A stretch of 64,000 bases of DNA, from the NCBI RefSeq assembly GCF_009914755.1, contig NC_060931.1; one strand, given 5' to 3'. The notes beneath the pieces were generated by a model. That model was not told the DNA's origin. It did no database searches and saw only the letters and a list, made by a program, of their open reading frames with translations. The translations under genes and the position numbers were made by a program. Shown in pieces: positions 57,735 to 59,336 of the stretch (positions within the stretch are counted from its first letter, which is position 1; every line of letters begins with the position of its first letter). This DNA comes from the human T2T-CHM13v2.0 reference genome, Homo sapiens.

Positions 57735-58009
57735 GGGAGAATTCACCTGCCCAGAAACTTTTCTAAAAGATCCCGCACATCCTTCAGATTCATGAAATGG
57801 TGCCAAAAATGCAGCAGACACAGACCCTTGTGCTTCAGTTGCTCACATGGAGCAGAACAGTATTTTCAATGAATTTATTCCCCCAAAGATTGCATGACTA
57901 CTTGATAAGTTTCTGTATTTTTAACATAAACTCAAGTTTTTAAAGGAGATTTAGGGCTACATTTGAAAACCTTCAAAGATCATGAAAAGCAAAACCGTAT
58001 GTGCTTGTT
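57735..58009 (+). repeat. Left arm of a ~275-bp inverted duplication
   Basis: Reverse complement of 59063-59336 with ~23 differences by hand alignment. Confidence 0.97.
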
Positions 58010-58637
58010 AGATAATTTTCCAGACAATACTCCTATTCTTCAGGCAAATTCCAGGGTAGTAGCCTTATTATAAAGTATATATTTATGTATCCGGGGTAGT
58101 AGCCTTATTGTAAAGTATGTAGTTATGTACTTATGGCCCAGCTCAATTGCGCACAGGGAAGGACCTTAACTATGCCTATCTGTGGGAAGAAATTACCCAG
58201 AGCTAAAATGAAACCAGTGGTGAAGATTATTAGTCATTGTGCATAGTTTGATGAGTGCCAAGTGTGTGCTTGGGACTCTTCAGGAATAAAGAGGGCATGA
58301 TTTCTTTTTTTAGAGCATTACAATTTATGTCGACTTGGCTCCGAATTGTTCACTCATATTCAGTAATGCTCTGCTTGTGACTGACAGAGACAAGGCCAGG
58401 AGCACTAGCCTGGCTGTGGCCTCTCCATGCCGGCTGTGATACCAGGTTGCACTTACATGATCTCAGCTCATTACACTTACCCACGGTAACCCAGAGGGCT
58501 AAAAATTATTAATTCCACTGTTTGACGACTATTTTGTTCTGTTTCATGGTTTTTGTTTTGATTTTTGGTTTTTAATTAAAAATTTTTATTCAGATAAGTA
58601 TACATTTACATGCATTCATAAGAAATAATATGGAGAG

Positions 58638-58922
58638 GGCCGAGCGCAGTGGCTCACGCCTGTAATCCCAGCACTTTGGGAGGCCGAGGTGGGTGGGTCA
58701 GGAGATCGAGACCATCCTGGCTAAAATGGTGAAACCCCGTCTCTACTAAAAATACAAAAAATTAGCCAGGAGTGATGGCGGACACCTGTAGCCCCAGCTA
58801 CTCAGGAGGCTGAGGCAGGAGAATGGTGTGAACCTGGGAGGCGGAGCTTGCAGTAAGCCGAGATCGAGCCACTGTACTCCAGCCTGGGCGACAAAGCGAG
58901 ACTCTGTCTTAATAATAATAAT
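58638..58922 (+). mobile_element. AluY
   Basis: gagatcgagaccatcctggctaa, gagaatggtgtgaac, ggagcttgcag diagnostics; TSD aataatatggagag. Confidence 0.94.
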
Positions 58923-59062
58923 AATAATATGGAGAGATTCCCATGTATTCTTTGCCCAGTTACCCTCAATGGTAACATCTTGCAAAACTGTTGTAGTACA
59001 TTACTACAATCAAAATATGGACACTGTTACAATCCATTGATCCTGTTCTGCGTTCCTGTATG

Positions 59063-59336
59063 AACAAGCACATACAGTTTTGCCTTTCATGATTTCTGAA
59101 GGTTTTCAAATGCAGCCTTAAATCTCCTTTAAAAACTCAAGTTTATGTTAAAATTATAGAAACTTATCAAGTAGTCATGCAATCTTTGGGGGAATAAATT
59201 TATTAAAAATACTGTTCTGCTCCTTGCGAGCAACTGAAGCACAAAAGCCTGTGTCTGCTGCATTTTTGACACCATTTCATGAATCTGAAGGATGTGCAGG
59301 ATCTCTTAGAAAAGTTTATGGGCTGTGAATTCTCCC
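59063..59336 (-). repeat. Right arm of a ~275-bp inverted duplication
   Basis: aacaagcacatacagttttg...gtgaattctccc is the reverse complement of gggagaattcac...gtatgtgcttgtt. Confidence 0.97.

What the first reader, a model, noticed from the sequence alone, without database searches (positions are those of the whole stretch)
57735..59336. ~275-bp non-TE inverted duplication: potential long dsRNA stem about 2 kb into the CREB5-delta intron
Seen: 57735-58009 and 59063-59336 are reverse complements with ~23 differences (~92%) around a ~1.05-kb spacer. The arms do not resemble any repeat I recognise. The right arm appears to interrupt an L1MC-like fragment (...ttctgcgttcc | tgtatg + arm | attttacttgta...gtgtg), with no TSD or poly-A and a 6-nt filler, so it is probably the derived copy. 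Established: long intramolecular duplexes in pre-mRNA are ADAR substrates and can affect splicing or dsRNA sensing; inverted repeats can mediate inversions. Inference: this stem is better paired than typical Alu-Alu duplexes, would form in all CREB5 pre-mRNAs, and arose by template switching.
Basis: partly seen in the sequence, partly recalled or inferred. Interest (0 to 1): 0.8.

Follow-up and report, generated by a model that had tools for sequence, protein, structure and literature searches.

The report
Backwards local copy in CREB5 intron
A 274-base piece of a CREB5 intron was copied backwards into an old repeat about 1 kb away, probably by a DNA-copying slip tens of millions of years ago, leaving a real hairpin-forming pair that shows no sign of having a job.

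Summary
Arms 57735-58009 and 59063-59336 are reverse complements: 22 substitutions plus one 1-base indel over 274 aligned bases (92%), with a 1053-nt spacer. They are the only two copies found in the 3.1-Gb assembly, so this is not a multicopy transposon.

The left arm lies in single-copy DNA. The right arm interrupts an old multicopy repeat. All 11 paralogous copies that I aligned have an empty site there. There is no target-site duplication and no poly-A, only a 6-nt filler and 2-3 nt of C microhomology. The filler's reverse complement lies 8 nt inside the arm. The best reading is one templated inverted insertion, by template switching or break repair. It is roughly 20-50 My old by recalled rates.

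As RNA, the arms pair in register over 256 bp. Complementarity beats the window's other inverted pairs, but predicted stability is only comparable. The mismatch pattern gives no sign of selection for pairing. Editing and function could not be tested, and I found no paper on this locus.

Verdict: a new member of a known kind, of modest interest.

The parts
57735..58009 (+). Left arm: the inferred source copy, lying in single-copy intronic DNA
   Evidence: 100% self match, with one other genomic match, the right arm. The 735 nt to its left gave only a self match. The spacer 58010 to about 58530 is also single-copy.
59063..59336 (-). Right arm: the derived, inverted copy, inserted into an old interspersed repeat
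   Evidence: 92% identical to the reverse complement of the left arm. It appears as a 280-column insertion relative to 11 of 11 aligned paralogous repeat copies.
59057..59062 (+). 6-nt filler TGTATG at the left junction of the insertion
   Evidence: Absent from the paralogs and from the source. Its reverse complement lies at 59071-59076, 8 nt inside the arm. Only 0.8% of window positions have the reverse complement of their 6-mer within the next 20 nt.
59334..59336 (+). Right junction: 2-3 C that could come either from the source (a run of 5 C on its reverse strand) or from the target repeat (paralog consensus has 4 C). This is microhomology.
   Evidence: Junction strings and paralog alignment A2.
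58556..59056 (+). Old multicopy repeat that received the insertion. It is itself split by an Alu at 58636-58934.
   Evidence: Query 58935-59062 gave 147 candidates; all 40 scored matched, one being the query's own locus and the other 39 at 74-95% identity. Positions 58530/58556-58635 match other copies. The family name, LINE-1 of L1M type, is recalled and not tested.
59337..59396 (+). Continuation of the same old repeat after the insertion (59337-59352), running into (GT)22 at 59353-59396
   Evidence: In 8 of 29 paralogs a second BLAST match to this stretch lies next to, or within about 20 nt of, the first. It aligns in 11 of 11 paralogs in A2. (GT)22 was found.
58636..58934 (+). Alu in the spacer, flanked by a perfect 14-nt target-site duplication (58624-58637 and 58923-58936). 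This is an independent retrotransposition and not part of the duplication.
   Evidence: Below-threshold Rfam SRP matches typical of Alu. Direct repeat D5. Masked as a repeat in the hub's table. 'AluY' is my reading of the sequence by recall.
58050..58129 (+). 40-bp tandem duplication 41 nt to the right of the left arm, 4 of 40 positions different
   Evidence: Its divergence is similar to that of the arms. Any link to the same event is speculative.
55575..55639 (+). Alternative first exon of CREB5 upstream of the pair (context only)
   Evidence: Hub annotation. The sequence shows no AG before it, an ATG inside it and a GT donor after it.

Best explanation
This is a one-off templated inverted insertion, not a transposon. 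A 274-nt stretch of single-copy CREB5 intron (the left arm) was copied in reverse-complement orientation into an old interspersed repeat 1.05 kb downstream. The target repeat was left otherwise intact.

The most likely mechanism is a replication template switch. A nascent strand left its template inside the old repeat, 12-16 nt from a (GT)n tract, and annealed through 2-3 nt of microhomology to the complementary strand at the left arm. It copied 274 nt, added a short templated filler, and returned to almost the same base. This is a large version of the '3-2-1-4' template-switch mutation, or equivalently a very small FoSTeS/MMBIR event.

The event post-dates the old repeat. Arm divergence (K2P 0.086) with recalled primate substitution rates puts it at roughly 20-50 My.

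In any CREB5 pre-mRNA that starts at or upstream of exon 55575-55639, the arms are predicted to form an imperfect duplex of about 256 bp with a 1-kb loop. Such intronic duplexes are expected ADAR substrates and are removed with the intron. I infer that the element is selectively neutral.

Shown: the duplication, its copy number, its direction, and the junction anatomy. Inferred: the template-switch route, the age, RNA pairing in vivo, editing, and neutrality.
For: - Only two copies in the assembly.
- The left flank and most of the spacer are single-copy.
- The right arm sits inside a multicopy old repeat (147 candidates, all 40 scored matched). The repeat continues on the other side of the arm. 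In 8 of 29 paralogs, BLAST places the two flanks adjacent or within about 20 nt. All 11 paralogs that I aligned show an uninterrupted site with no loss of more than about 1 base of target.
- No TSD and no poly-A. There are 2-3 nt of C microhomology at one junction. The other junction has a 6-nt filler whose reverse complement lies 8 nt inside the arm; the background rate for that is 0.8% of positions.
- (GT)22 lies 16 nt from the junction.
- Differences are spread evenly along the arms, with a longest identical run of 43 nt, so there is no sign of recent gene conversion.
- The MFE fold of 1871 nt pairs the arms in register over 256 bp, with a longest helix of 50 bp.
- The 18 transitions give 14 A.C mismatches and only 4 G.U wobbles, so pairing has not been preserved.
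- Template-switch mutations that create inverted repeats are documented in primates at 14-83 nt scale (passages of PMC5453318, and PMC10710096). They are also documented at kb-Mb scale (abstract of PMC7954356; listing of PMC2621351).
Against: - No outgroup genome was available. The direction (left arm to right arm) rests on parsimony, and the age rests on recalled rates.
- The junction features do not separate a replication template switch from repair of a double-strand break with a copied patch.
- The copied tract (274 nt) and the jump (1.05-1.6 kb) are several times larger than the short-range template switches described in the papers I read.
- At the filler's matching site the two arms differ. 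The left arm has a CpG where the right arm has CpA. An exact match at the time of the event therefore needs one assumed later substitution in the left arm.
- RNA pairing is a thermodynamic prediction only. No expression, editing or duplex data were available.
Confidence: 0.7

Rival explanations
1. A double-strand break in the old repeat was repaired by end joining with a captured or copied patch. This would be a class 2 templated sequence insertion, or polymerase-theta-type synthesis. The patch could be a DNA copy of the nearby left arm or a cDNA of the CREB5 pre-mRNA, inserted antisense.
For: No TSD, no poly-A, microhomology and a short filler. These are the features listed for class 2 TSIPs (passages of PMC5110952). 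Snap-back templated fillers are described for polymerase theta (abstracts in the listing). The source is transcribed as part of the CREB5 intron.
Against: Class 2 insertions are described there as coming from distant regions. Here the source is 1 kb away and inverted, which a local strand switch explains without further assumption. The target lost at most about 1 base, whereas resected breaks often lose more. Neither point is decisive.
Confidence: 0.2
2. The arms are transposon sequence. Either they are the terminal inverted repeats of one DNA transposon, or they are two copies of one TE family inserted head to head.
For: Long inverted arms around a spacer are the classic picture of a TIR element. 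No repeat library could be run here.
Against: Only two copies in 3.1 Gb. The same search tool readily found 147 candidates for the neighbouring old repeat at 74-79% identity. The old repeat flanks the right arm on both sides, while the left arm's outer flank is single-copy. The pair therefore cannot be the two ends of one inserted element. There is no TSD.
Confidence: 0.02
3. LINE-1 machinery inserted a reverse-transcribed fragment of CREB5 intronic RNA (class 1 templated insertion).
For: The source is transcribed, and the insertion is antisense to the gene, as a cDNA could be.
Against: No TSD of 5 nt or more and no poly-A tract. The junction is not at a TTTT/A cut site. These are the defining features given in PMC5110952.
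Confidence: 0.02
4. Whatever its origin, the hairpin is kept because it works. It could act as an ADAR-dependent or dsRNA-dependent regulator of CREB5 transcripts from the nearby alternative promoter, or as a source of small RNAs.
For: It has the highest percent complementarity of the five inverted pairs in the 64-kb window. It lies 2.1 kb after an alternative first exon. The predicted duplex is 256 bp.
Against: - The mismatch pattern shows decay of pairing: 14 A.C mismatches against 4 G.U wobbles, plus 4 transversion mismatches.
- No Rfam family matches the arms.
- The spacer holds no annotated exon.
- The pair falls outside the 'long and nearly perfect' class (>300 bp, >96%) that Barak et al. 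link to sensing. They also report that intronic duplexes are only weakly selected against (passages of PMC7006430).
- No paper with CREB5 plus editing, dsRNA or inverted-repeat terms concerns this locus (listings only).
Confidence: 0.05

Closest known systems
Template-switch mutations (four-point model, event type 3-2-1-4 / 1-4-3-2) in primate genomes
   Same: [quoted passage not shown] This creates a new inverted repeat in one event (PMC5453318 passages). Such events made hairpins, including miRNA stems, mostly in introns (PMC10710096 passages).
   Different: Described events are 14 to about 83 nt with small loops. Here the copied tract is 274 nt and the source is 1.05 kb away. A second short templated filler is also present.
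FoSTeS / MMBIR (microhomology-mediated replicative rearrangement)
   Same: Microhomology at the junction, a templated inverted segment, and possible serial switches (PMC2621351 and PMC11293582: listing and abstracts only).
   Different: Those events are reported at kb-Mb scale and usually as pathogenic copy-number changes. This one is about 0.3 kb, fixed in the assembly, and old.
Class 2 templated sequence insertions (break repair with a patch)
   Same: No TSD, no poly-A, microhomology and extra nucleotides at the junction (PMC5110952 passages).
   Different: Their donors are distant and thought to be RNA-derived. Here the donor is local and inverted.
Inverted Alu pairs / inverted duplicated sequences in pre-mRNA (ADAR substrates)
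   Same: Two inverted copies of about 300 nt within a few kb in one intron, predicted to form long dsRNA (PMC7006430 passages).
   Different: The arms are not a repeat family. Complementarity is higher (92% against 75-82% in this window), but G+C is lower, so stability is similar. It does not reach the >300 bp, >96% class singled out in that paper.

Membership tests
Template-switch mutation, inverted-repeat-creating type | The new fragment is a reverse-complement copy of nearby sequence | tested here: met
   92% over 274 nt, with the source 1053 nt away.
Template-switch mutation, inverted-repeat-creating type | Departure and return points are adjacent on the original template, so the target is otherwise intact | tested here: met
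   11 of 11 aligned paralogs are continuous across the site. At most about 1 base of the window's target is unaccounted for.
Template-switch mutation, inverted-repeat-creating type | The ancestral state lacks the copy, shown with an outgroup | not testable with these tools
   No primate or other mammalian genome was available. Only paralogous repeat copies served as a proxy.
Template-switch mutation, inverted-repeat-creating type | Short range (tens of bases), as in the published catalogues | tested here: not met
   274-nt copy and 1.05-kb distance, against 14-83 nt in the passages read.
DNA transposon with terminal inverted repeats / MITE | Multiple copies in the genome | tested here: not met
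   2 matches in 3.1 Gb, 2 candidates in the first look.
DNA transposon with terminal inverted repeats / MITE | Target-site duplication flanking the whole element, with the same host sequence outside both arms | tested here: not met
   The outer left flank is single-copy. The right arm has the old repeat on both sides. No TSD.
LINE-1-mediated insertion (class 1 TSI) | TSD of at least 5 bp, a poly-A tail, and a TTTT/A target | tested here: not met
   None of the three is present at 59056-59063 or 59336-59337. Criteria are from PMC5110952.
Class 2 templated sequence insertion (break patch) | No TSD or poly-A; microhomology and added nucleotides at the junctions | tested here: met
Class 2 templated sequence insertion (break patch) | Donor in a distant genomic region, RNA-derived | tested here: not met
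   The donor is 1 kb away in the same intron. RNA derivation is not testable.
'Long and nearly perfect' inverted duplicated sequence (Barak et al. 2020) | More than 300 bp and more than 96% identity within one transcript | tested here: not met
   274 nt and 92%. Thresholds are from PMC7006430.
ADAR-edited intronic dsRNA | Clustered A-to-G mismatches in RNA reads on both arms | not testable with these tools
   No RNA-seq or editing database was available. No paper was found for this locus.
Known structured RNA (miRNA, snoRNA, etc.) | Match to an Rfam model at the gathering score | tested here: not met
   5 sub-threshold matches in 57000-60200. None lies on the left arm. One (SCARNA7, 22 bits against a cut-off of 65) overlaps the end of the right arm and the (GT)n tract. 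Three others are Alu-related.
LINE-1 (label of the repeat that received the insertion) | Continuity with reverse-transcriptase-coding sequence in longer copies | tested here: inconclusive
   0 Pfam hits in 40 of 181 upstream ORFs from 29 paralogs. Of 68 ORFs from 4 extended paralogs, RVT_1 appeared only in L047, about 6 kb upstream, and continuity was not shown.

The most novel reading that the evidence does not exclude
The pair is a primate-born, non-transposon intronic hairpin that is a strong ADAR substrate just downstream of an alternative CREB5 promoter. The excess of A.C over G.U mismatches (14:4) would then reflect selection to loosen, or to make editable, a duplex that was harmful when perfect. 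That would make it a dated natural experiment on how a genome tolerates a newly created long dsRNA.
Probability: 0.06. Interest if true: 0.5.

Novelty: new member of a known kind. Interest (0 to 1): 0.3.

Why it matters
This is a clean, datable example of a templated inverted insertion at a scale between two well-described ranges: short template-switch mutations (tens of bases) and the kb-Mb rearrangements of genomic disorders. The empty site can be read from paralogous repeat copies. Both junctions are intact enough to show microhomology and a templated filler.

It also shows that long intronic dsRNA stems can arise without transposons. If editing data confirm pairing, the locus could serve as a non-Alu control substrate. 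Nothing found here suggests an effect on CREB5 itself.

Tried and rejected
- Rfam with permissive thresholds over 57000-60200 gave only Alu-type and other sub-threshold matches. Nothing explains the arms.
- Stop-to-stop ORFs over 57600-59450 are at most 88 aa and unremarkable. I did not search them further.
- I tried to confirm the 'LINE-1' label of the flanking repeat through Pfam on upstream ORFs of paralogs. There were 0 hits in 40 of 181 ORFs. In four paralogs extended by about 8 kb, 68 ORFs gave RVT_1 in one locus only, far upstream. The label stays unconfirmed.
- A short-repeat scan of 57600-59460 found only chance-level extra matches. One example is an 18-nt direct match between 57650 and 59102, whose exact core is 11 nt.
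- Literature searches found nothing about this locus: CREB5 + A-to-I + intron (1 paper, unrelated), CREB5 + dsRNA + ADAR (7 papers) and CREB5 + 'inverted repeat' (9 papers, 8 listed). I judged these from the listings alone.
- The supplementary tables of PMC7006430 were not opened. They list only structures >300 bp and >96%, which this pair does not reach.
- NAHR-mediated inversion of the spacer seems unlikely, because the longest identical run between the arms is 43 nt. It could not be tested without haplotype data.

Full report
**1. Observation**

The repeat finder reports arms 57749-58009 and 59063-59323: 261 nt ungapped, 92% complementary, 1053 nt apart. With one gap allowed, the homology runs over 57735-58009 and 59063-59336. 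A global alignment gives 274 aligned positions with 18 transitions, 4 transversions and one 1-base indel. Identity is 92.0%, K2P distance 0.086, and the longest identical run is 43 nt. Homology ends abruptly at both ends.

**2. Copy number and context**

- The left arm, searched against the window's own 3.1-Gb assembly, found only itself and the right arm: 2 candidates, 2 scored.
- The same tool is sensitive enough for old repeats. The 128 nt just left of the right arm (58935-59062) gave 147 candidates. All 40 scored matched: one is the query's own locus and the other 39 are at 74-95% identity.
- The 735 nt left of the left arm gave only a self match.
- The spacer 58010-58635 is single-copy except for its last 70-105 nt, which match other loci.
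- So the left arm lies in single-copy DNA, and the right arm lies in an old interspersed repeat.
- That repeat is also split by an Alu at 58636-58934 with a perfect 14-nt target-site duplication.

**3. Direction of the duplication**

I ran BLAST with 58935-59420 against 29 paralogous loci. In 8 of the 29, a second match to the sequence right of the arm (from 59327) lay next to, or within about 20 nt of, the first match in the paralog.

I then aligned 11 of the 29 paralogs with the window. These were the 8 above plus 3 whose first match reached the junction. The other 18 were left out because their matches stopped short of the junction. All 11 are continuous across the site. The window carries a block of about 280 columns, filler plus arm, that none of them has.

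The window's repeat sequence resumes at the next base or two, so the target was neither duplicated nor deleted by more than about 1 base. The right arm is therefore an insertion into a pre-existing repeat. With only one other copy in the genome, the left arm is the parsimonious source. Without an outgroup this remains parsimony, not proof.

**4. Junction anatomy**

*Left junction.* The repeat ends in ...GCGTTCC. Then come 6 nt, TGTATG, found neither in the paralogs nor next to the source. The arm follows.

- The reverse complement of the filler lies 8 nt inside the arm, at 59071. With the preceding C this forms a 7-nt inverted match.
- In the window, only 0.8% of positions have the reverse complement of their 6-mer within the next 20 nt, and 0.26% for 7-mers. 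The filler therefore looks templated.
- At that site the left arm has CG where the right arm has CA (position 57996). An exact match at the time of the event thus assumes one later change in the left arm.

*Right junction.* The arm ends in ...GAATTCTCCC and the repeat resumes with ATTTTACTTG. The source reads ...GAATTCTCCCCC on that strand, and the paralog consensus has CCCC at the site. So 2-3 C are shared, which is microhomology.

*Other features.* There is no poly-A and no TSD. A (GT)22 tract begins 16 nt to the right.

**5. Mechanism**

These features rule out three routes:

- A TIR transposon. There are only two copies, and the outer flanks are unlike each other.
- Two head-to-head TE copies.
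- LINE-1-mediated insertion. There is no TSD, no poly-A and no TTTT/A site, which are the criteria in PMC5110952.

They fit a microhomology-mediated templated insertion. I favour a replication template switch (0.7 including its variants). The donor is local and inverted, the departure and return points are adjacent, and a microsatellite that could stall a fork lies beside the junction. The stalling idea is inference.

In the four-point scheme of Löytynoja and Goldman the order of switch points is 3-2-1-4, a type that creates an inverted repeat (PMC5453318 passages). Published short-range events are 14-83 nt. Replicative rearrangements of the FoSTeS/MMBIR type are usually reported at kb-Mb scale (listing; PMC7954356 abstract). 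This event lies between the two.

The main rival (0.2) is repair of a double-strand break with a copied patch, that is, a class 2 templated insertion or polymerase-theta-type synthesis. It has the same junction signature.

**6. Age**

K2P is 0.086 between the arms, about 0.043 per arm. From 22 differences the sampling range is roughly 0.05-0.12. With long-term primate rates recalled from the literature, this suggests roughly 20-50 My. That is much younger than the host repeat, whose paralogs are mostly 74-79% identical to it. The differences are evenly spread, so there is no sign of recent gene conversion.

**7. RNA potential**

The MFE fold of 57600-59470 (1871 nt) pairs the arms in register at 256 positions, with a longest uninterrupted helix of 50 bp. 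Co-folding the arms gives -410 kcal/mol, against -113 +/- 5 for 20 shuffles.

Among inverted pairs of at least 120 nt within 6 kb in the 64-kb window, this one has the highest ungapped complementarity: 92%, against 75-82% for the other four. Its predicted energy lies within the range of three Alu-type pairs (-293, -423 and -467 kcal/mol), because the arms are only 38% G+C. The pair 32299-32604 / 32619-32947 is predicted to be more stable.

The pair starts 2096 nt after exon 55575-55639. That exon has no acceptor AG before it, an ATG inside it and a GT donor after it, as expected of an alternative first exon. Transcripts starting there or upstream carry both arms in one intron. I could not check the other annotated transcripts.

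**8. Function**

Nothing here points to a function.

- No Rfam family fits the arms, and there are no notable ORFs.
- The 18 transitions between the arms give 14 A.C mismatches and 4 G.U wobbles in the RNA duplex, and the 4 transversions also break pairs. Selection to keep the stem would favour wobble-compatible changes.
- The 14:4 skew is nominally unusual (two-sided binomial p = 0.031). But it is one locus, unpolarised, and one of several things I looked at.
- Barak et al. find that intronic inverted duplicates are only weakly depleted. They reserve concern for structures >300 bp and >96% identical, and this pair is neither (PMC7006430 passages).
- Searches for CREB5 together with editing, dsRNA or inverted-repeat terms returned no paper about this locus (listings only).
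- From general knowledge of ADAR substrates I expect the duplex to be edited in nuclei of cells that transcribe this intron. That is inference.

**9. Verdict**

The functional part is untested and, on the mismatch pattern, unlikely to involve maintained pairing. This is a new member of a known kind of mutation. It is unusual mainly for its intermediate size and its well-preserved junctions.

Noticed in passing
window 58050-58129: A 40-bp tandem duplication (4 of 40 positions differ) lies 41 nt to the right of the source arm. Its divergence is similar to that of the inverted arms. It could be a by-product of the same replication accident or of a local slippage hotspot.
   Followed up: partly
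window 57735-58009 vs 59063-59336: The 18 transition differences give 14 A.C mismatches and 4 G.U wobbles in the predicted RNA duplex (p = 0.031). The A.C mismatches split 7 and 7 between the arms, with no T-to-C class at all. This is unpolarised and may be chance or a strand-specific mutation bias.
   Followed up: partly
window 59353-59396: A (GT)22 microsatellite, part of the old repeat's own GT-rich stretch, lies 16 nt from the insertion junction. It is a possible polymerase-stalling site.
   Followed up: no
window 32299-32604 and 32619-32947: Two Alu-type repeats in inverted orientation with a very short gap. The repeat finder gives 45 nt between its arms. Predicted duplex energy is -467 kcal/mol, stronger than the finding's pair.
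   Followed up: partly
window 58556 and loci L005, L008, L010, L012, L013, L019, L021, L022, L023, L025, L027, L031: 12 of 29 paralogs of the old repeat, and the window's copy, share the same left edge about 75-80 nt before the anchor and just after a T-rich stretch. The other 17 extend further. Simple random 5' truncation of a LINE would not give this, and the repeat's family remains unnamed here.
   Followed up: partly
L047:6084-6992 (- strand): Two adjacent ORFs match the reverse-transcriptase domain RVT_1 (E 1.7e-20 and 7e-10). They lie about 6 kb upstream of one paralog of the old repeat, in the same orientation. They may belong to a different, younger element.
   Followed up: no
window 58624-58637 and 58923-58936: A perfect 14-nt target-site duplication flanks the Alu in the spacer. 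The Alu's A-tail has become (TAA)n.
   Followed up: yes
window 55575-55639: The alternative CREB5 exon has no AG acceptor before it. It contains an ATG in a short open frame running to a GT donor, which fits a coding first exon with its own promoter beside the annotated enhancer and silencer elements.
   Followed up: partly
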